64,000 bases of DNA, taken from positions 6,126 through 70,125 of the forward strand of contig JBAYKD010000002.1 in NCBI GenBank assembly GCA_041664745.1, in the 5' to 3' direction. Under the pieces are notes generated by a model, which saw only the letters and a list, made by a program, of their open reading frames with translations, was not told the DNA's origin and made no database searches. Source of the stretch: Minisyncoccota bacterium (GTDB lineage: Bacteria; Patescibacteriota; Minisyncoccia; Phycocordibacterales; UBA9973). Positions 1-59,542 of this stretch are shown here, piece after piece. Each line of letters starts with the position of its first letter. The stretch's first letter is position 1. A program made the translations under genes and the position numbers.

Positions 1-1203
1 ATTTATAGATAAGTTGTCTGAAAAAACCTTCTTGAGTTTATTGTTTAGTAATTTCAAATCTCCGTTATAAGAAATTTTCTCTTTCAGCAATATATATTTT
101 GGTATTTCTTCTACTATTTGAGAAATCTTTTGGTTTTGTTCGGTCATTAATTCTAAAATTACACCAATCCCTACAAGCGCATCTCTTGCAGTATTTATTT
201 TAGGGTAGATGATTCCACCATTTCCTTCTCCACTTAAAGTAGAGCCAATTTCAAACATTTTTTCCACAACATTCAGCTCACCAACTTTTGATCTTATAAG
301 TTTCTTTCCAAAACTTTCTGTTACATCCTTACACATGTTAGATGTCGACATATTTACCACAACATCAGTTTTTTCTTTTTTTAGAATATTTTTGATAGCT
401 AAGGCCATTGTATATTCTTCACTTATTATCTCTCCTTTTTCATTTACTACTAGCAGTCTATCTCCATCTGGGTCAGTAACAAAACCAATGTCTGATTTGT
501 TTTTAATAACATCTATACTTATTTGTTTTAAGTTTTTTACAAGAGGTTCAGGTGGGTGTGCAAATTCACCATCCTGTTTAGCGTTTATAATTTTAACCTT
601 ACAATTAAGCTTTTTTAAGAGTTCTCTTATTATTACGCCACTTGCCCCGTTTATGGTATCAACAGTTACTTTGTATCTAGCCCCTCTTATATCTTTGATA
701 TTAATATTTTTGAGAATTTCACTGATGTGTATTTGTCTAAATTTTTTATTATCTGTTTTTGTATAATGTATTTTTTTATTTGGTATATATTTTTCTTTTA
801 AATGTTCTTTGACTTCATTTATTTGCTCTATTATATTTTTTCCTGCAAATAAACCATCTTTGGTTACAAATTTCAAACCATTATATTCTTTAGGATTATG
901 ACTTGCTGTAATAATAATCCCTCCATCCAATTTTAACTTTTTTACTAATAGAAGTATCGATGGGGTAGGGATAACACCTGCATCTATTACAGAAATTCCT
1001 TCTTTTTTAAAAGCTAACTTTAAAATTTCAAATATTTTTGGACCACTTTTTCTTGAATCTCTACCAATAATGATCTTTTTACCGTTATTTTTTTTAATTA
1101 TTTTTGCGAAAGAAATACCAAAAGAAAAAGCTATTTCTTCATTTAATGTTTCTCCCCATATACCTCTATACCCAGAAACTGTAAGTTTTGGTTTATTTTC
1201 CAT
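1..1203 (-). CDS. phosphoglucomutase/phosphomannomutase-family sugar-phosphate mutase (C-terminus runs off the window)
   Basis: Own minus-strand translation from the ATG at 1203-1201 gives MENKPKLTVSGYRGIWGE... It has the active-site Ser loop TASHNP and the Mg loop DPDGDRL (near 450-480). The frame stays open to base 1. It is absent from the ORF track because there is no stop in the window; the 209..766 + ORF is its antisense shadow. Confidence 0.85.
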   Translation of the reverse strand, partial: MENKPKLTVSGYRGIWGETLNEEIAFSFGISFAKIIKKNNGKKIIIGRDSRKSGPKIFEILKLAFKKEGISVIDAGVIPTPSILLLVKKLKLDGGIIITASHNPKEYNGLKFVTKDGLFAGKNIIEQINEVKEHLKEKYIPNKKIHYTKTDNKKFRQIHISEILKNINIKDIRGARYKVTVDTINGASGVIIRELLKKLNCKVKIINAKQDGEFAHPPEPLVKNLKQISIDVIKNKSDIGFVTDPDGDRLLVVNEKGEIISEEYTMALAIKNILKKEKTDVVVNMSTSNMCKDVTESFGKKLIRSKVGELNVVEKMFEIGSTLSGEGNGGIIYPKINTARDALVGIGVILELMTEQNQKISQIVEEIPKYILLKEKISYNGDLKLLNNKLKKVFSDNLSIN

Positions 1204-6791: not shown

Positions 6792-6910
6792 AACACTCCA
6801 TAAAATTATTCTCGGACTCACCACACAATAAAATTCTACTGAATTTTTTGCTCGTACTCGGCTCGTCGGCCTCCGTAAGGGTTCGCTCGAGAACATTTTT
6901 GTTGCGTGTT
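6792..6910 (+). repeat. about 119-nt palindromic intergenic element, copy 1 (fills the csoR-copA spacer)
   Basis: Near-identical to the reverse complement of 58469..58587 and clearly related to 29959..30075. Imperfect ~25-nt terminal inverted repeats (AACACTCCATAAAATTATTCTCGGA / reverse complement AACACGCAACAAAAATGTTCTCGAG). The core is GC-rich (GCTCGTACTCGGCTCGTCGGCCTCCGTAAGGGTTCGCTCGAG). Confidence 0.85.
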
Positions 6911-7879: not shown

Positions 7880-8062
7880 TTGTTTGGTTGTTTTGATTTA
7901 TAATTATTGAACTTTCTTTATCTCTCTAAATAAGGGGAACAAAGAAAGTTCAATAAATATAACTAAACCAAAAATATCAAAGAACGATAAAACTACCTAT
8001 AGTATAGCATATTTATTGGTGGTTGTCAATGGGGAAAAGAAGTCTTGTTTCCCAATCCTTTT

Positions 8063-9161: not shown

Positions 9162-9286
9162 GTATGGCGGGAACGTGAGTACACTTATCGATCATTACAT
9201 GACCAGTATCCCAATTCGTTTCGGTTAACACCGAAAAACGAATTGGGCTTCGATTTCCGCACGCTTCATCCGCAGGGATGAAGCTC

Positions 9287-9340
9287 ATCTCCACATAAGA
9301 AAAAACCTCATCGGAATGAGGTTTTTTCTTATGTGGAGAT
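9287..9340 (-). terminator. 25-bp perfect inverted repeat / bidirectional terminator overlapping the tmRNA 3' end
   Basis: ATCTCCACATAAGAAAAAACCTCAT-CGGA-ATGAGGTTTTTTCTTATGTGGAGAT. The inner part is a classic A-tract / hairpin / T-tract. The outer 7 nt are complementary to the tmRNA acceptor 3' strand. Confidence 0.7.
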
Positions 9341-9733
9341 GGCGGGAATCGAACCCGCGTGCAGGAGGGAATCTTATAGAATTCTACATGTTTAGTATGT
9401 TCATTTTGTTTTAACCATTTACTCTAGAGAGCATACAAGAAAAGTAAATAACGAGCTTTAAATTGTAGAACTTTACATCAAGCATTTGTAAAATCGTAAC
9501 CCGATAAATTATGCCCACTCTTTATATCGGATGTCAAAAGAGTAGACATCGTCCAGACCTAAATTTAGGCGAGGGCGAAAGCGGATTGCATACCGAATGC
9601 CGAAGCAAAAGGCGATACTATCGCTCTAGCGACTTTGTTTGCACTTAGTCTTTTCCAAGAAGTTTTAAAAGATTCCTGAGTACTTTACATGCATATATAA
9701 GATGATTCCTCTTGTCGAAGCCGATCATCCCCC
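9334..9733 (-). ncRNA. ssrA: tmRNA (transfer-messenger RNA)
   Basis: The minus-strand 5' end is GGGGGATGATCGGCTTCGAC. The 3' end is GCGGGTTCGATTCCCGCCATCTCCA (T-arm plus acceptor). An internal reading frame at 9565..9642 would encode ANKVARAIVSPFASAFGMQSAFALA*. The gene is directly adjacent to smpB. Confidence 0.9.
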
Positions 9734-12146: not shown

Positions 12147-12150
12147 AAAA

Positions 12151-12182
12151 TTGAAAAACCTTACAAAAGTAAGGTTTTTCAA
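12151..12182. terminator. bidirectional hairpin terminator between ftsH and tRNA-Ile
   Basis: TTGAAAAACCTTAC-AAAA-GTAAGGTTTTTCAA. Confidence 0.7.
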
Positions 12183-12185
12183 TTG

Positions 12186-12259
12186 TCCGTCCTCTAGGAT
12201 TTGAACCTAGGACCCCAGAGGTATAAGCTCTGTGCTCTAACCAGCTGAGCTAAGGACGG
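12186..12259 (-). tRNA. tRNA-Ile with anticodon UAU (reads AUA)
   Basis: Cloverleaf by hand: acceptor CCGTCCT/AGGACGG, D-arm GCTC-AGCTGGTTA-GAGC, anticodon arm CAGAG-CTTATAC-CTCTG, T-arm CTAGG-TTCAAAT-CCTAG, discriminator A. Confidence 0.8.
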
Positions 12260-18467: not shown

Positions 18468-18476
18468 AAAAACAAT

Positions 18477-18510
18477 AAAAAATACCCCTTATACAAAGGG
18501 GTATTTTTTA
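18477..18510 (+). terminator. rho-independent terminator after the kinase-like gene
   Basis: AATACCCCTT-ATACA-AAGGGGTATT followed by TTTTA. Confidence 0.65.
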
Positions 18511-18560
18511 TTTGGAATAGTGGTATAATGTAATTATATTAATAATATTGTTATATTTTT

Positions 18561-19769: not shown

Positions 19770-19770
19770 T

Positions 19771-19815
19771 AAAAACAAAAAATATCCCTTAAAATAAGGG
19801 GTATTTTTTGTTTTT
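19771..19815. terminator. bidirectional terminator between 19404..19769 and recG
   Basis: AAAAACAAAAAATATCCCTT-AAAAT-AAGGGGTATTTTTTGTTTTT. Confidence 0.7.
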
Positions 19816-19818
19816 ATT

Positions 19819-22185
19819 TTATTCAAAATGCAATTTGAGATTTTTTGATTTAATTATTTCTGAGATGACGGGAAAGGATTTTAGATCTGTGTCAACCTCA
19901 ATCATTTTGATAGCTTCTGTTCGGGCAGCTTCTACCATTTTTATATTCTTTATAGCTTCCATGCCGAGGTCGGTAATGCCCCATTGCTTCTCTCCTCCCA
20001 AGAGTCCTGCTCCACGGAGCGATAGATCGAGCTCAGCAAGCTCAAATCCGTTTGATGCTTTTGTAATAGCCTTCAGTCTCTCGATTGTTTTGTCTGATTT
20101 AGCATCAGCAAATAAGTAGCAGTAGGATTGAAAAGTTGAACGAATAACTCGTCCGCGAAGCTGGTGGAGCTGGGCGAGACCGAAACGTTCTGCTCCTTCT
20201 ATTATGATTACAGTTGCGTTGGGGACGTTCACTCCGACTTCTATAACAGAAGTTGAGACCAATATATCAATTTTTTTATCGGCAAAATCTTTCATAACCT
20301 TCTCTTTTTTCTCCTTCGTCATCTTGCTGTGCATTATCTCAATATTATAATTTGGAAAGATGTCTTTCTTTAGTCTTTTGGCTTCATCATTAACAGTTCG
20401 AAGCTCGGAGATATTACTTCCGTCAGCACGCAATAAATCTCTGGTGAGATTTTTGCTAGTGCTCGGCTCGACTTCCTTACAGGAACAGTACACCTTTTGG
20501 ACACTTTGATTACAAAGTTTCTCAAAAGGTCTTGCGGAAGCTTCAGGTATTCGCTTCCTCACCTGCGTGAGGCTTCCTGAAGCAATATCTCCGAGCTTCT
20601 CACTTTCCTCACCGATTTTTGGACAAATTACATAAAGCTGTCGTCCTTCTTCTAATTCTTTCTTAATTTTTTCATAAGCTTCTGCTCTTTTATTTTCTTT
20701 TACTATTTCTGTGATGACTTGCTTGCGGCCAAGTGGCATCTCATCAATGATACTCAAATCCAAGTCGCCATAAATAGTGAGCGCAAGTGTGCGGGGGATA
20801 GGTGTCGCTGTCATTGATAAATAATGTGGGGCATGGCCATGCTTCTTTACCAACTTCATTCTTTGGTTTGTTCCAAATCTGTGTTGTTCATCTATTATTA
20901 CAAGCCCTAGATCTTTAAACTCTACGGTTTTAGATATGAGAGCATGTGTGCCGATCACTATCGGTATCTCACCATTTTTAATCCATTTCAAAAGCTGATT
21001 CTTGGCAATTGGCGTCCATGTTTTTATTTGTGAGCCTTTCTCCCATGGTGCACTTTTACTAGGGAATTTACGGCAACCAGAGCCTGTCATAAGAGCAATA
21101 GATATGCCAGTATGTTCGAAATATTTGATAAAGTTCTCATAAAGCTGGGTAGCGAGAACTTCTGTCGGAGCCATATAAGCGACTTGCAGATTACCAAAAT
21201 CTCCATACCGAGAAGTTCCTGTAGTATTCTTTATTACTGCGTATGCGATAGTTGCTGCTACGAAAGTTTTTCCACTCCCGACGTCACCTTCAAGTAGGCG
21301 TGACATTGGTTTGTCTTTCACGAAATCGGTCAAAATAGTATCGATTGTATTTGTCTGTGCCTTCGTGGGAGTGAAAGGGAAGCGAGATATAAAGTCATTA
21401 ATATCTTTCTCAGGTATTTTTAATTTATATGAAAAGTTTTCTTGATACTTCTTCTTCTCTTGCTGGCGTGAAAGCTGAATGAAAAAAACTTCTTCGAAAG
21501 CAAATCTTTTGCGAGCTATTTCTGCGTGTTCTCTCTTTTGTGGCATGTGGACCCATATCAAAGCTGTATGTAATGCTGGTAAATTATATTTATTTAATAT
21601 TTCGCTCGGTATATAGTCCACAATATCTTTCACGCAATCCTGCTTTAGTATCTTCTGTATAGCGTGATAGAACCATTTGGAAGTGATACCTCGACTTTCT
21701 CCATATACAGGGAAGCCGAATTGAGTTTGCTTTTCTTTATTATTGAAAAGTGAATCGTCGATATCTATAGGGAGAATATCTTCTTTGTTTATTTCTGGAT
21801 TGGTCAACGTAAGTCCATAAGTTTTATTATTCGTGACTTTGCCCGTTACTCGCACAGTTGAATCCTCCTTAAGCATTTTTGCTAAGTAGGGTTGATGAAA
21901 CCAAATAATATTTATAGAGGAGGTTAAGTCTGTGAGTACCGCTTGCCCCATTGGTATTTTACTTTTGAACCCTTTTTTAGTTTTTAGTCCATTTATTTTC
22001 CCAAGTATTGTTACATTTTCTCCATCCTTTAATGTATTTATATTTCGGACTTCACTTATATCACTGTAGCGAGAGGGGAAGTGATAAAGTAAATCCTTTA
22101 AAGTTTTTAAACCAAGTGTCGCTAGTGCTTTCTTTTGATTTACATCAACACGAAAATGATTTTCGATTTTATCGCCTAGATTCAT
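19819..22185 (-). CDS. recG: ATP-dependent DNA helicase RecG (carries a 66-aa in-frame insertion)
   Basis: Wedge/OB N-terminal domain, Walker A GDVGSGKT, DEQH box, QxxGRxxR-type motif HQLRGRVIRS, and C-terminal TRG region. See the insertion feature at 20400..20599. Confidence 0.9.
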   Translation of the reverse strand: MNLGDKIENHFRVDVNQKKALATLGLKTLKDLLYHFPSRYSDISEVRNINTLKDGENVTILGKINGLKTKKGFKSKIPMGQAVLTDLTSSINIIWFHQPYLAKMLKEDSTVRVTGKVTNNKTYGLTLTNPEINKEDILPIDIDDSLFNNKEKQTQFGFPVYGESRGITSKWFYHAIQKILKQDCVKDIVDYIPSEILNKYNLPALHTALIWVHMPQKREHAEIARKRFAFEEVFFIQLSRQQEKKKYQENFSYKLKIPEKDINDFISRFPFTPTKAQTNTIDTILTDFVKDKPMSRLLEGDVGSGKTFVAATIAYAVIKNTTGTSRYGDFGNLQVAYMAPTEVLATQLYENFIKYFEHTGISIALMTGSGCRKFPSKSAPWEKGSQIKTWTPIAKNQLLKWIKNGEIPIVIGTHALISKTVEFKDLGLVIIDEQHRFGTNQRMKLVKKHGHAPHYLSMTATPIPRTLALTIYGDLDLSIIDEMPLGRKQVITEIVKENKRAEAYEKIKKELEEGRQLYVICPKIGEESEKLGDIASGSLTQVRKRIPEASARPFEKLCNQSVQKVYCSCKEVEPSTSKNLTRDLLRADGSNISELRTVNDEAKRLKKDIFPNYNIEIMHSKMTKEKKEKVMKDFADKKIDILVSTSVIEVGVNVPNATVIIIEGAERFGLAQLHQLRGRVIRSTFQSYCYLFADAKSDKTIERLKAITKASNGFELAELDLSLRGAGLLGGEKQWGITDLGMEAIKNIKMVEAARTEAIKMIEVDTDLKSFPVISEIIKSKNLKLHFE
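20400..20599. mobile_element. palindromic GC-rich element inserted in-frame in recG (198-bp core)
   Basis: Perfect 16-bp terminal inverted repeat GAAGCTCGGAGATATT / AATATCTCCGAGCTTC. 20401..20598 is 198 bp, or 66 codons. It has internal nested hairpins and shares the core ATTTTTGCTnGTnCTCGGCTCG with the intergenic element family. Confidence 0.75.
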
Positions 22186-28540: not shown

Positions 28541-28627
28541 GGAGGCGTGGATGAGTGGTTTAAATCAACAGTTTACTAAACTGTCGAACCTTTACCGGTT
28601 CCGTGAGTTCGAATCTCACCGCCTCCG
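28541..28627 (+). tRNA. class II tRNA with Ser-like architecture and apparent anticodon ACU
   Basis: Acceptor GGAGGCG/CGCCTCC, Ser-type D-arm, anticodon arm ACAGT-TTACTAA-ACTGT (perfect 5-bp stem, 7-nt loop), long variable arm CGAACCTTTACCGGTTCCG, T-loop TTCGAAT, discriminator G. Confidence 0.7.
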
Positions 28628-29958: not shown

Positions 29959-30075
29959 AACACTCCATAAGAATATTCTCGGACTCACCACGCATATTTC
30001 CTTGCTAGGAAATTGCTCTGCTCGGCCCAGTCGGCCTGCGCAAGTGTTCCCTCGAGAACATTCTTATTACGTGTT
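29959..30075 (+). repeat. about 117-nt palindromic intergenic element, copy 2 (3 nt after the eno stop)
   Basis: The termini match copy 1 (AACACTCCATAAGAATATTCTCGGACTCACCAC ... CTCGAGAACATTCTTATTACGTGTT). The central core is diverged (GCTCTGCTCGGCCCAGTCGGCCTGCGCAAGTGTTCC). Confidence 0.8.
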
Positions 30076-42812: not shown

Positions 42813-42829
42813 ATTTTAATTAATTTTAC

Positions 42830-42861
42830 AAAAAACCACTTCAATCTTGAGTGGTTTTTTG
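42830..42861 (+). terminator. rho-independent terminator after the pilin pair
   Basis: AAAAAACCACT-TCAATCTTG-AGTGGTTTTTTG. Confidence 0.7.
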
Positions 42862-42886
42862 TTTGTTTGGATGTTATACTATATAC

Positions 42887-50592: not shown

Positions 50593-50666
50593 CGCAGTCG
50601 AAGGGATTTGAACCCTCAACCTCCCACGTGACAGGCGGGTGCTCTAACCAGTTGAGCTACGACTGC
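50593..50666 (-). tRNA. tRNA-Asp (GUC)
   Basis: GCAGTCG acceptor, anticodon arm CCCGC-CTGTCAC-GTGGG, T-loop TTCAAAT, discriminator G. Confidence 0.9.
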
Positions 50667-50730
50667 AAATAAACTATAACTGCAAACATTTCAAACATAA
50701 CATAAATTAGAAAAAAATTCTAATCTATTG

Positions 50731-50804
50731 TGTCGGTGGGAGGGCTCGAACCTCCGACCTCGGGCTTATGAGTCCCGCGCTCTAACCAGCTGAGCTACAC
50801 CGAC
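50731..50804 (-). tRNA. tRNA with CAU anticodon, elongator type (Met; Ile-lysidine type not excluded)
   Basis: GTCGGTG/CACCGAC acceptor with a G1:C72 pair, D-stem GCTC/GAGC (C11:G24), loop CTCATAA, T-loop TTCGAGC. Confidence 0.85.
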
Positions 50805-50807
50805 ATT

Positions 50808-50883
50808 ATTCGCTTTAGTCTAACCAAAACAGCTACACAAACACCATTCGCTTTAGTCTAACCAAAACAGCTACACATACATT
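50808..50883 (-). repeat. two tandem 38-nt units that are decayed copies of the 5' acceptor/D-arm part of the adjacent tRNA
   Basis: In tRNA sense, GT(A/G)T(G/T)TGTGTAGCTGTTTTGGTTAGACTAAAGCGAAT occurs twice, compared with the genuine GTCGGTGTAGCTCAGCTGGTTAGAGCG. A further GTCGGTGTA fragment lies at about 50892-50900. Confidence 0.75.
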
Positions 50884-50948
50884 ATTAATTTACACCGACA
50901 CTATTTCGGTTTCATAGACATAATTGTGGTATGTCACTTACCGAATTG

Positions 50949-51019
50949 TTGCGGGAGGTCGAATCGAACGACCGTCTTAAGGTTATGAGCCTTACGAGAT
51001 ACCATTTCTCTATCCCGCT
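50949..51019 (-). tRNA. tRNA-Met (CAU), initiator-like
   Basis: Acceptor AGCGGGA/TCCCGCA with an A1xA72 mismatch, A11:U24 in the D-stem (GAGA/TCTC), anticodon arm TAAGG-CTCATAA-CCTTA, T-loop TTCGATT. Confidence 0.75.
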
Positions 51020-51148
51020 ATAATATACTTACTAACGAGATACCTTTTATATCCCGCTATGTTGTAAAGTCATATTATAACAAAAAATATAGATTTTGCA
51101 ATGATTGAAAATAAGCTTAATTTATAGTATTCTAAGTGGAGTTGAAAA

Positions 51149-51220
51149 GCCGTCATAGCTTAGTGGCAAAGCACTCCCTTGGTAAGGGAGAGAGCGTGAG
51201 TCCGATTCTCACTGACGGCT
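51149..51220 (+). tRNA. tRNA-Thr (GGU)
   Basis: GCCGTCA acceptor, anticodon arm CTCCC-TTGGTAA-GGGAG. Confidence 0.9.
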
Positions 51221-51240
51221 CTGTACCAATTTTTGTTTTA

Positions 51241-51313
51241 GCCGAAGTAGCTCAGTTGGTAGAGCGGCGGTATCGTAAACCGCAGGTCGCCAGTTCAATC
51301 CTGGCCTTCGGCT
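51241..51313 (+). tRNA. tRNA-Thr (CGU)
   Basis: GCCGAAG acceptor, anticodon arm GCGGT-ATCGTAA-ACCGC, T-loop TTCAATC. Confidence 0.9.
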
Positions 51314-58419: not shown

Positions 58420-58458
58420 ACCCCTCCGCCTATGGCACCTCCCCTTAGCAGGGGAGGA
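58420..58458 (+). repeat. GC-rich C-tract/G-tract hairpin element (family B), immediately after the pyrG stop
   Basis: GACCCCTCCGCCTATGGCACCTCCCCTTAGCAGGGGAGG, with stem CCTCCCC/GGGGAGG. It is collinear with the reverse complement of 33262..33324. Confidence 0.65.
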
Positions 58459-58468
58459 AAAATACAAA

Positions 58469-58587
58469 AACACGTAATAAAAATGTTCTCGAGCGAACCC
58501 TTACGGAGGCCGACGGGCCGAGTACGAGCAAAAAATTCAACAGAATTTTATTGTGTGGTGAGTCCGAGAATGTTTTTATGGAGTGTT
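58469..58587 (-). repeat. about 119-nt palindromic intergenic element, copy 3 (inverted orientation)
   Basis: Its reverse complement differs from copy 1 (6792..6910) at only a handful of positions. Confidence 0.85.
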
Positions 58588-59471: not shown

Positions 59472-59542
59472 TGCGGGATCGTCTAATGGTAGGACCGCAG
59501 TTTCTGGAACTGTGTATTTAGGTTCGAATCCTAGTCCCGCAG
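59472..59542 (+). tRNA. tRNA-Gln (CUG)
   Basis: U1:A72 acceptor TGCGGGA/TCCCGCA, D-loop TCTAATGGTAGGA, anticodon arm GCAGT-TTCTGGA-ACTGT, T-loop TTCGAAT, discriminator G. Confidence 0.88.

What the first reader, a model, noticed from the sequence alone, without database searches (positions are those of the whole stretch)
6792..6910. Family of ~119-nt intergenic palindromic (MITE/REP-like) elements: three copies in the window
The three copies are at 6792..6910 (+), 29959..30075 (+) and 58469..58587 (inverted). Copies 1 and 3 differ at only a few positions. Copy 2 keeps both termini but has a diverged centre. All have imperfect ~25-nt terminal inverted repeats (AACAC-TCCATAA...TTCTCGGA / TCTCGAGAACA...CGTGTT) and a GC-rich centre in an AT-rich genome. 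All abut gene ends within a few nt and are flanked by A- and T-runs. They are too short to encode a transposase, so they are non-autonomous. They could act as RNA hairpins for mRNA stability or termination.
Basis: seen in the sequence. Interest (0 to 1): 0.6.

Follow-up and report, generated by a model that had tools for sequence, protein, structure and literature searches.

The report
Palindromic repeat that also colonises genes
The three ~119-base palindromic repeats are real members of a gained-and-lost repeat family of tiny uncultivated (CPR/Nomurabacteria) bacteria that sits after stop codons and also lies in frame inside essential genes, much like the 'Rickettsia palindromic elements', and I found no description of it in the papers I could search.

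Summary
There are three copies, at 6792-6910, 29959-30075 and 58469-58587, plus a decayed fourth copy inside recG at about 20400-20590.

The MITE/REP label is only partly right. An exact-core scan found 37 more copies in 20 Nomurabacteria/Paceibacterota assemblies. About a quarter lie in frame and stop-free inside long ORFs: KsgA, UvrD (two sites), a CCA-adding enzyme and the PolA 5'-3' exonuclease.

Sites turn over:
- csoR-copA is filled in the window and empty in a contig encoding the identical CsoR.
- The KsgA and RecG loops are empty, filled, flipped or occupied by other palindromic families among close relatives.
- One loss is a 96-nt deletion that leaves only the outer arms.

The arms covary strongly (31 of 44 pairs with double changes), and the centre is the most conserved part. 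I found no target-site duplication, no partner transposase and no Rfam, phage or plasmid match. In-gene copies show no third-codon-position excess, so conservation is at the nucleotide level.

Best reading: an RPE-like, hairpin-forming selfish DNA family whose arms are kept complementary at the DNA level. It possibly doubles as a terminator at copies 2 and 3. The mobilising machinery is unknown.

The parts
6792..6910 (-). Copy 1 (subfamily A1). It lies between the csoR-like stop (6913) and the copA start (6779), inside an operon. Strand given is the G.U-rich 'element-sense' strand.
   Evidence: CM R1 scores 110.9 bits on the - strand against 22.2 on the + strand. Flanking genes by Pfam. The site is empty in L040, which encodes the identical CsoR protein.
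29959..30075 (-). Copy 2 (subfamily A2, with a CAGTC/GACTG loop in hairpin P3). It starts 2 nt after the enolase stop codon and is followed by T7.
   Evidence: CM 111.9 bits. 91% identical to L021 from another MAG but only 71-73% to copies 1 and 3. Enolase by Pfam.
58469..58587 (+). Copy 3 (subfamily A1). It lies between the convergent pyrG (stop 58419) and a LOG-family gene (stop 58604), with T-runs after the stem in both reading directions.
   Evidence: CM 122.3 bits. 96.6% identical to L024 of Nomurabacteria GWE2_34_25 at a non-orthologous site.
58469..58491 (+). Copy 3, 5' strand of the terminal stem P1 (AACAC, a 3-nt internal loop, then 15 pairs). Its partner is 58565-58587.
   Evidence: MFE folds. 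Covariation of helices 1 and 2 in 49 copies: 18 of 25 pairs with double changes.
58565..58587 (+). Copy 3, 3' strand of the terminal stem P1.
58508..58519 (+). Copy 3, inner hairpin P3 (GGCC GACG GGCC). It covaries in intergenic copies and is degraded in many in-gene copies.
   Evidence: Helix 4: 4 of 4 pairs with double changes, 76% of cells paired.
58528..58554 (+). Copy 3, inner hairpin P2 (AU-rich stem, CAGCAG-type loop). This is the most conserved module and is shared with the related 'class 2' elements.
   Evidence: Helix 5: 7 of 11 pairs with double changes, 91% of cells paired.
20400..20590 (-). Decayed in-frame copy inside recG (ORF 19819-22185, - strand). It carries a second ~32-codon palindromic piece nested in it, and its outer arms AAGCTCGGAGATATT / AATATCTCCGAGCTT are perfect.
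   Evidence: nhmmer hit at 20423-20479. CM 17.7 bits. About 62 aa inserted relative to RecG 1gm5. Sequence and translation. Orthologues carry the simple A-type insertion or none.

Best explanation
The three repeats belong to a family, and a wider superfamily, of ~97-125-nt non-autonomous palindromic DNA elements of Nomurabacteria/Paceibacterota (CPR bacteria). They behave like Rickettsia palindromic elements.

Shown:
- Copies are dispersed and are gained, lost and found flipped at the same sites between related genomes.
- Intergenic variants carry TAA-rich arms and sit right after stop codons.
- Stop-free variants sit in frame inside essential genes, where they appear to be carried as extra loops. 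Translation is inferred from intact frames and a low-confidence modelled loop, not observed.

Inferred:
- The element persists as a hairpin or cruciform-forming sequence.
- Its two arms are kept complementary by DNA-level arm-to-arm templating (quasipalindrome-type template switching) and/or by selection for the hairpin.
- Loss occurs by deletions at the hairpin, which can leave the outer arms as a small palindromic scar.
- The nearly invariant, strand-asymmetric centre (junction plus two small hairpins) is what an unidentified trans-acting factor recognises on one strand.

At copies 2 and 3 the stem followed by a T-run probably also terminates or stabilises the neighbouring transcripts. That would be a side effect, not the reason the family exists.
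For: Family and spread:
- 37 exact-core copies in 36 loci from 20 assemblies; 6 lie on the 704-kb contig of Nomurabacteria GW2011_GWD2_36_14.
- Subfamilies are shared between MAGs at non-orthologous sites, with median identity 85-92% depending on the subfamily.

In-gene residence:
- Two copies lie inside one UvrD ORF, and both are insertions relative to PcrA 1pjr.
- Other hosts are KsgA, a CCA-adding enzyme, the PolA 5'-3' exonuclease and RecG.
- All in-gene copies are stop-free and in frame.
- A KsgA AlphaFold model has pLDDT below 50 at the insertion (residues 98-126) and otherwise only at the N-terminal 11 residues.

Turnover:
- Among 120 KsgA homologues the same loop is empty in 23, carries the element in one orientation in 48 (plus 9 A-type), carries it in the other orientation in 7, and holds something else in 33 (mostly other palindromic families; the automatic classes are approximate). 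These states are scattered over the tree.
- Of 120 RecG homologues, 58 have a short spacer and about 55 carry the element.
- csoR-copA is filled in the window and empty in L040.
- Orthologous intergenic sites carry flipped copies of different subtype: copy 1 versus L003, and L020 versus L027.

Loss:
- L089 (filled) and L088 (empty) are 91% identical in nucleotides. The empty site GAGGTCGG|CGACCTC is just the outer arms of the filled allele, a 96-nt in-frame deletion.
- L045 versus L046 is an 81-nt deletion that leaves the left arm.

Structure:
- 89.7% of cells are paired, against 39-51% when the partners are slid. 31 of 44 pairs show double changes. 0 of 500 shuffles reach the observed values. 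RNAalifold agrees.
- The arms of the window and L089 RecG copies differ by two fully compensated double substitutions in coding DNA at about 10% divergence.

Constraint is on nucleotides, not the peptide:
- Variability at codon positions 1/2/3 is 0.084/0.099/0.082 in 16 in-gene copies.
- At orthologous sites the elements are 85-93% identical, against 75-83% for the flanking coding DNA in the L007/L011/L017 trio.

Strand asymmetry is intrinsic:
- G.U 183 against A.C 78 on one strand.
- CM 111-122 bits on that strand against 22-28 on the other.
- On reading the per-copy counts, the asymmetry holds whatever the host transcription direction.

No match to a known family in Rfam, phages, plasmids or viral contigs.
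Against: - No insertion event is caught between near-identical genomes, so 'gain' is inferred from the distribution. Several 'empty' sites are demonstrably secondary losses.
- No mobilising enzyme, target-site duplication or autonomous partner was found, so the mode of spread is unknown.
- The conservation of the centre, which exceeds that of the flanking coding DNA, is more than a purely selfish, decaying repeat would predict. It could mean a host-level function.
- The exact-core scan biases the first 40 copies towards conserved centres.
- Arm-to-arm templating is inferred from a few compensated changes, not demonstrated.
- Translation of in-gene copies is inferred from intact frames, not observed.
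Confidence: 0.7

Rival explanations
1. A classical MITE: a deletion derivative of an insertion sequence, moved in trans by that IS's transposase, which binds the terminal inverted repeats.
For: Inverted-repeat arms, small size, many dispersed copies, presence/absence polymorphism and clustering with related elements.
Against: On reading the flanks of about 15 intergenic copies and the filled/empty pairs I saw no consistent flanking direct repeats. The termini are the most variable part and differ completely between subfamilies, while the centre is conserved; this is the reverse of what transposase-bound TIRs predict. No solo arms or longer partner were found in the window plus 87 loci. No transposase genes were seen among the neighbouring genes checked.
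Confidence: 0.12
2. A functional structured RNA (a cis-acting 3' UTR element, bidirectional terminator or small RNA) maintained by selection on RNA structure. In-gene and flipped copies would be by-products.
For: Strong covariation, a three-way junction with an invariant junction including a possible tandem G.A motif, and G.U pairs concentrated on one strand. Copies 2 and 3 are followed by T-runs directly after stop codons. Elements are more conserved than flanking coding DNA.
Against: Orientation relative to co-directional flanking genes is mixed, about 5 against 5. The G.U-rich strand is not consistently the transcribed one. Copies are present or absent between relatives encoding identical neighbouring proteins. 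Copy 1 sits inside an operon that must be read through. Hairpin P3 decays in many copies, and some diverged copies replace the junction by a perfect stem (L063). There is no Rfam family. Compensated arm changes can arise by DNA-level templating without any RNA selection.
Confidence: 0.12
3. Folded single-strand recombination sites (attC-like or Xer/IMEX-like) used by a tyrosine recombinase. This would explain the strand asymmetry, the conserved mismatches, the flipping and the precise loss.
For: Structure is conserved more than sequence in the arms, with conserved asymmetric mismatches and one preferred strand. Flipped copies occur at identical sites. One locus has a Xer-like recombinase gene flanked by two copies (L009).
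Against: The copies are dispersed rather than arranged in cassette arrays. I did not see R''/R' core-site consensus at the ends on reading the sequences. The single recombinase association is about what chance gives: an unrelated NTP-transferase gene is flanked in the same way (L027). In-gene copies have no parallel in integrons.
Confidence: 0.06

Closest known systems
Rickettsia palindromic elements (RPE-1 to RPE-10; Ogata et al. 2000, as summarised in PMC10969869)
   Same: A ~100-150-bp palindromic, non-autonomous repeat with tens of copies in a small reduced genome. Copies are intergenic and also in frame and stop-free inside unrelated housekeeping genes, at positions compatible with the protein fold. 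No transposase or target duplication is known, and copies proliferate and decay.
   Different: An unrelated phylum (CPR/Patescibacteria rather than Alphaproteobacteria). Sequence homology was not tested. Here the centre is a conserved branched module with variable, covarying arms. The same protein loops are hit repeatedly, in both orientations, and by several families. Hairpin-symmetric excision scars are visible.
Correia/NEMIS elements of Neisseria and other bacterial MITEs (ERIC, RUP, BOX) (PMC10969869)
   Same: Small inverted-repeat elements near gene ends. They are transcribed into hairpins that can affect termination or RNase processing, they cluster and nest, and Correia elements can invert.
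   Different: Those have conserved TIR termini, a TA (or other) target duplication and mostly intergenic locations. Here I found no duplication, the termini are variable, and in-frame residence in genes is frequent.
REP/BIME sequences with RAYT (TnpA-REP) transposases (my own knowledge of the family)
   Same: Palindromic, multi-copy, sited at gene 3' ends, more conserved than a neutral repeat, and possibly recognised as a hairpin on one strand.
   Different: REPs are 20-40 nt simple hairpins with a GTAG head, present in hundreds of copies and strictly extragenic, and they flank a RAYT gene. On reading the copies none of the sequence features holds here, and no RAYT was looked for systematically.
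Integron attC sites (my own knowledge of the family)
   Same: Imperfect palindromes of 57-141 bp at gene 3' ends. Folded single-strand structure and strand matter more than sequence, and the central part can be branched.
   Different: attC sites have conserved outer core sites and a variable centre, the reverse of this element. They occur in cassette arrays next to intI and are not found inside ORFs.

Membership tests
Rickettsia palindromic element-type repeats (functional class) | A 100-150-bp palindromic repeat, multi-copy and dispersed | tested here: met
   119 nt with a long terminal stem. 3 copies plus 1 remnant in the window. 37 further exact-core copies in 20 assemblies.
Rickettsia palindromic element-type repeats (functional class) | Copies inserted in frame, without stops, inside unrelated protein-coding genes as well as intergenic | tested here: met
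   UvrD (two sites), KsgA, RecG, CCA-adding enzyme and PolA 5'-3' exonuclease. These are insertions relative to the solved structures PcrA 1pjr and RecG 1gm5.
Rickettsia palindromic element-type repeats (functional class) | Insertion sits where the host fold tolerates it (a surface loop) | tested here: met
   In the KsgA AlphaFold model, pLDDT is below 50 at residues 98-126 (the insertion) and 1-11, and is high elsewhere (mean 82.9, 172 residues at 90 or above). The flanking strands and motifs are intact. This is a model, not an experiment.
Rickettsia palindromic element-type repeats (functional class) | Sequence homology to RPE families of Rickettsiales | not tested
   No RPE consensus was available in the tools. 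Homology is unlikely given the phylum, and the claim made here is 'works like', not 'is a member of RPE-1..10'.
Classical MITE | Conserved terminal inverted repeats that match a transposase-encoding IS | tested here: not met
   Arms are inverted repeats but are the least conserved part. No solo arms or longer partner were found in the window plus 87 loci. Coverage of whole genomes is limited.
Classical MITE | Target-site duplication flanking each copy | tested here: not met
   I saw no consistent direct repeat on reading the flanks of about 15 intergenic copies or the filled/empty pairs. This is by inspection, with no statistical test.
REP/BIME | A 20-40-nt simple hairpin with a conserved GTAG-type head, extragenic only, associated with a RAYT gene | tested here: not met
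   119 nt with a branched centre. I saw no GTAG head on reading the copies. About a quarter of copies are intragenic. RAYT was not searched genome-wide.
Integron attC site | R''/L''...L'/R' core sites (RYYYAAC...GTTRRRY), cassette arrays, an adjacent intI | tested here: not met
   The ends read AACAC...GTGTT or are variable (by inspection). Copies are dispersed singly among housekeeping genes.
Any described RNA family (Rfam 15) | A match at or near the gathering score | tested here: not met
   No hit at the copies with gathering thresholds on the window and 19 loci. The best permissive hit was E=0.15 and unrelated.
Intrinsic (bidirectional) terminator | A stable stem directly followed by a U-run on the transcribed strand, at a gene's 3' end | tested here: inconclusive
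   Copy 2 is followed by T7, and copy 3 by T5/T6 in both directions. Copy 1 has none in the transcribed direction and lies inside an operon. The simple scan cannot score branched stems. There are no transcript data.

The most novel reading that the evidence does not exclude
The family may not be passive junk. Its strand-asymmetric centre stays almost invariant across species, more so than the neighbouring coding DNA, while the arms are continually re-perfected. Copies are found inserted, flipped and cleanly excised at the same loops of essential enzymes. This could reflect a dedicated, still unknown single-strand-specific machinery (a recombinase or nuclease, or an RNA-level partner) that drives an insert/flip/excise cycle and recodes protein loops in CPR bacteria. 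That would be a new kind of intragenic mobile or invertible element system.
Probability: 0.25. Interest if true: 0.85.

Novelty: new variant of a known kind. Interest (0 to 1): 0.62.

Why it matters
How Rickettsia palindromic elements enter genes in frame has, to my knowledge, never been explained, partly because that system is small and confined to one genus. This looks like an independent and much larger natural experiment.

- Several palindromic families sit in uncultivated CPR bacteria, for which thousands of metagenome genomes exist.
- Insertion hot spots recur in KsgA, UvrD and RecG, with filled, empty and flipped alleles among close relatives.
- Excision scars are visible.

That should make the mechanism approachable by comparative genomics, for example through phyletic profiling of candidate enzymes and dated gain/loss events.

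There are also practical consequences.
- The elements inflate and diversify CPR protein sequences.
- They probably break assemblies (see L074).
- They produce strong 'RNA covariation' signals that may come from DNA-level palindrome maintenance, which is a caution for ncRNA discovery pipelines.

Tried and rejected
- Rfam at gathering and permissive thresholds gave nothing at the copies.
- I suspected that copies far from ORFs lay in rRNA operons. This was wrong: they lie inside long ORFs that my first ORF filter had hidden.
- A profile search with the encoded peptide against the protein database returned only four tiny ORFs and cost one capped search.
- A riboswitch or 5'-leader reading of copy 1 and of L007/L011/L017 was rejected, because the upstream genes end at the element and orientation is mixed.
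- An intron-like reading was rejected. All in-gene copies keep the frame and lack stops, including in the KsgA loci that were fetched without reference to the element.
- For ribozyme cores (hammerhead, twister, pistol, hatchet, HDV) I recognised no motif by eye, and there is no Rfam hit.
- A tRNA-like or T-loop resemblance of GGGTTCG and CACCA is not supported by any arrangement of the parts.
- DNA uptake sequence was rejected: the element is too long and too rare.
- PARCELs (PMC2996958) are tandem 25-residue repeats in surface proteins, which is a different thing.
- Viral contigs, phage records and plasmids gave no match.
- A regex search of the window for the other palindromic peptide families found none.
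- GC skew shows no replichore switch in the window, and copy orientation is 3 against 1, which is uninformative.
- The terminator scan does not flag the elements, because it handles only simple hairpins.
- The recombinase flanked by two copies (L009) is judged to be chance.

Full report
**1. The observation**

Two 17-mers from the conserved flanks of the centre each occur exactly three times in 64 kb, against 0.05 and 0.16 expected, and no shuffle reaches three. Copies 1 and 3 are 94% identical. Copy 2 is 71-73% identical to them and changes its inner hairpin compensatorily.

Each copy folds into a terminal stem of about 23 pairs, closing a junction with two small hairpins.

The neighbours are ordinary housekeeping genes:
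- Copy 1 lies between csoR and copA.
- Copy 2 follows enolase.
- Copy 3 lies between the convergent pyrG and a LOG-family gene.

The window comes from a Paceibacterota/Nomurabacteria (CPR) metagenome contig, ENA ERZ27249449 k141_1677615, 119 kb.

**2. It is a widespread family**

One exact-pattern scan of species-representative genomes (core 16-mer, 45-75 nt, core 9-mer) returned 37 copies in 36 loci from 20 Nomurabacteria/Paceibacterota assemblies. Six lie on the 704-kb contig of GW2011_GWD2_36_14.

Rfam has no matching family, at curated or permissive thresholds, in the window or in 19 loci. Phage, plasmid and viral collections have no match. Five of six full-text searches bore on this and found no description of such elements in CPR bacteria. 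That library is incomplete, so the family may still have been described elsewhere.

**3. The surprise: copies inside genes**

Copies that seemed far from any ORF actually lie inside long ORFs.

- L015 has two copies inside one 731-aa UvrD/PcrA gene. Alignment to PcrA 1pjr shows both as insertions: query 56-106 against PcrA 79-84, and query 371-436 against PcrA 346-351.
- Other hosts are KsgA/RsmA, a CCA-adding enzyme and the PolA 5'-3' exonuclease.
- All are stop-free and in frame. Nearly all are read on the G.U-rich strand, giving NVLERTLGRSDGDGQRKFSAENFRGESENIL. L005 is read on the other strand at the same KsgA site, giving IFSDSPQKFSAENFLCP...PRVHSRT.
- The window has such a copy too. Its RecG carries about 62 extra residues relative to RecG 1gm5, exactly where nhmmer and the covariance model find a decayed copy, and a second palindromic piece is nested inside it.
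- In an AlphaFold model of a KsgA with the insertion, the inserted residues (98-126) and the first 11 residues have pLDDT below 50, while most of the rest is above 90.

This is the behaviour described for Rickettsia palindromic elements (PMC10969869).

**4. Turnover**

- **KsgA.** Among the 120 best KsgA homologues, the loop between DILxF and YKIIANIPY is empty in 23. It carries the element in the common orientation in 48 (plus 9 of the A-type) and in the opposite orientation in 7. In 33 it holds something else, mostly other palindromic families; the automatic classes are approximate, and a few of the 33 look like misfiled copies of this element. The states are scattered over the gene tree, and sisters often differ.
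- **RecG.** Among 120 RecG homologues, 58 have a short spacer (30-38 residues) and about 55 carry the element.
- **Copy 1.** Contigs encoding the identical 87-aa CsoR have csoR-TAA-T-ATG-copA with no element (L040, and a second contig known from gene coordinates only). The window and two other samples are filled.
- **Flips.** Orthologous intergenic sites carry copies of different subtype in opposite orientation: copy 1 against L003, with csoR 91% identical and the elements 84% identical, and L020 against L027.
- **Losses.** L089 and L088 (RecG, 91% nucleotide identity) differ by a 96-nt in-frame deletion. The empty allele, GAGGTCGG|CGACCTC, is just the outer arms of the filled one, GAGGTCGGACATATTG...CAATATGTCCGACCTC. 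L045 and L046 (KsgA, 91% identity) differ by an 81-nt deletion that leaves the left arm.

So some 'empty' sites are scars. Gains are inferred from the scattered distribution, the flipped copies and the different subtypes. No gain was caught directly.

**5. Architecture and what is conserved**

In an alignment of 49 non-redundant copies, 89.7% of cells in the proposed pairs are standard pairs, against 39-51% when the partners are slid. 31 of 44 pairs show changes on both sides, and no shuffle of 500 reaches the observed values. RNAalifold independently recovers the terminal stem and hairpin P2.

Unlike a transposon's inverted repeats, the outermost arms are the most variable part. Compare AACACGTAAT.../...ATGGAGTGTT with AAAGAAAGAGAAAGT/ACTTTCTCTTTCTTT. 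The centre is nearly invariant.

Related 'class 2' elements share only the two inner hairpins. Diverged in-gene copies can replace the junction by a perfect 21-bp stem (L063), and hairpin P3 decays in many copies.

Strand asymmetry is strong: G.U 183 against A.C 78, and covariance model scores of 111-122 bits against 22-28. On reading the per-copy counts it stays on the same element strand whatever the direction of host transcription.

**6. What kind of constraint**

In 16 in-gene copies the three codon positions vary equally (0.084, 0.099, 0.082). The peptide is therefore not what is conserved.

In the orthologous trio L007/L011/L017 the elements are 85-93% identical, while the flanking coding DNA is 75-83%. 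Subfamilies are shared between species at non-orthologous sites at a median of 85-92%, and copy 3 is closer to a copy in another species (96.6%) than to copy 1. This means nucleotide-level selection, homogenisation between copies, or horizontal spread. The data cannot separate these.

The arms of the orthologous RecG copies in the window and L089 differ by two substitutions, each mirrored exactly on the other arm, in coding DNA at about 10% divergence. L008 and L051 show another compensated pair. Such clean double changes fit arm-to-arm templated correction of quasipalindromes, which is established for replication template switching (my own knowledge). They warn that the covariation need not reflect RNA selection.

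**7. Mechanism**

Shown:
- a dispersed palindromic family
- in-frame residence in genes
- polymorphism, flips and hairpin-related deletions
- nucleotide-level conservation and strand asymmetry

Inferred:
- persistence as a hairpin or cruciform
- DNA-level maintenance of the arms
- recognition of the centre by an unknown trans-acting factor

Not found:
- I saw no target-site duplication on reading the flanks.
- There are no partner elements or solo arms.
- There is no transposase among the neighbours checked.
- One Xer-like recombinase gene is flanked by two copies (L009), but so is an unrelated transferase gene (L027). That is roughly what chance gives.

A terminator or stabiliser side-role is plausible at copies 2 and 3, where a stem is followed by T5-T7. 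The genome's ordinary gene-end hairpins have similar AT-rich arms. Copy 1 sits in an operon without a downstream T-run, and orientation relative to flanking genes is mixed.

**8. Verdict**

The closest known kind is the Rickettsia palindromic element. The differences are:
- a different phylum
- a conserved branched centre with covarying arms
- recurrent hot spots hit in both orientations and by several families
- visible excision scars

I rate it a new variant of a known kind, of moderate to high interest. The three window copies are ordinary-looking intergenic repeats. The family they belong to opens a tractable route to the question of how palindromic repeats come to sit in frame inside essential genes.

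Noticed in passing
window 20400-20590 (recG, ORF 19819-22185 -): A fourth, decayed in-frame copy of the family, with a second ~32-codon palindromic piece (GCTTCAGGAAGCCTCACGCAGGTGAGGAAGCGAATACCTGAAGC...) nested inside it. The outer arms form a perfect 15-bp inverted repeat encoding KLGDI / NISEL.
   Followed up: yes
KsgA, UvrD and RecG loops in P0005-P0244, L015, L013, L029, L058, L062, L064, L068, L077: At least four or five other unrelated insert families occupy the same protein loops. Their peptide signatures are FSQVLGS.GP.P, FLNGLAG.GT..TEDL, FSSLRPS..T.WDPRE, F.SGPR.SGSLS.PDHSKN and DPLRPSGTSPLAGGG. Some loops carry two inserts in tandem (P0009, P0045, P0063).
   Followed up: partly
L030 2104-2154, L014 722-772, L011 5983-6033, L024 7593-7643: 'Class 2' elements share the two inner hairpins (loops CTGCTG and CCGTCG) with the window family but have different long arms (AAATAGCTCTTCTCAGAGGG.../...CCCCTCTGATAAGACTATTT). 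In L014 and L030 they lie directly next to a class 1 copy, in a BIME-like cluster.
   Followed up: partly
L074 1663-1785: The copy has the left flank of the UvrD-site copy and the right flank of the KsgA-site copy seen 1.3 kb apart in L051. This is either a deletion by recombination between two direct copies or an assembly chimera at the repeat.
   Followed up: no
L009 2034-3205: A 306-aa Xer-like tyrosine recombinase gene (Phage_integrase plus SAM-like N domain) is flanked on both sides by copies of the family. An NTP-transferase gene in L027 is flanked in the same way, so this is probably chance.
   Followed up: partly
window 19770-19816, 18474-18512, 12149-12184, 9286-9341, 7893-7966, 42816-42874: Plain AT-armed palindromic hairpins with a small GC apex sit at gene ends (bidirectional-terminator-like). 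The covariance model matches them weakly as 'arms only'. Whether any are excision scars of the element, like the one in L088, is unknown.
   Followed up: no
window 58438-58457: A GC-rich hairpin CCTCCCC-TGCTAA-GGGGAGG (read on the - strand) lies between the pyrG stop and copy 3. It has no U-run after it on either transcribed strand.
   Followed up: no
hairpin P2 of in-gene copies (e.g. L015 7700-7725, L005 3255-3280): The palindromic hairpin GAAAATTTTC-NGCN-GAAAATTTTC encodes the same peptide KFSAENF whichever strand is read, so both orientations share this stretch of the inserted loop.
   Followed up: yes
window 9331-9732 (-), 50593-51313, 12186-12259, 28541-28627, 59472-59542: A tmRNA gene (130.6 bits), with smpB nearby according to L037, and eight tRNA genes including a cluster at 50.6-51.3 kb. 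These are ordinary features.
   Followed up: no
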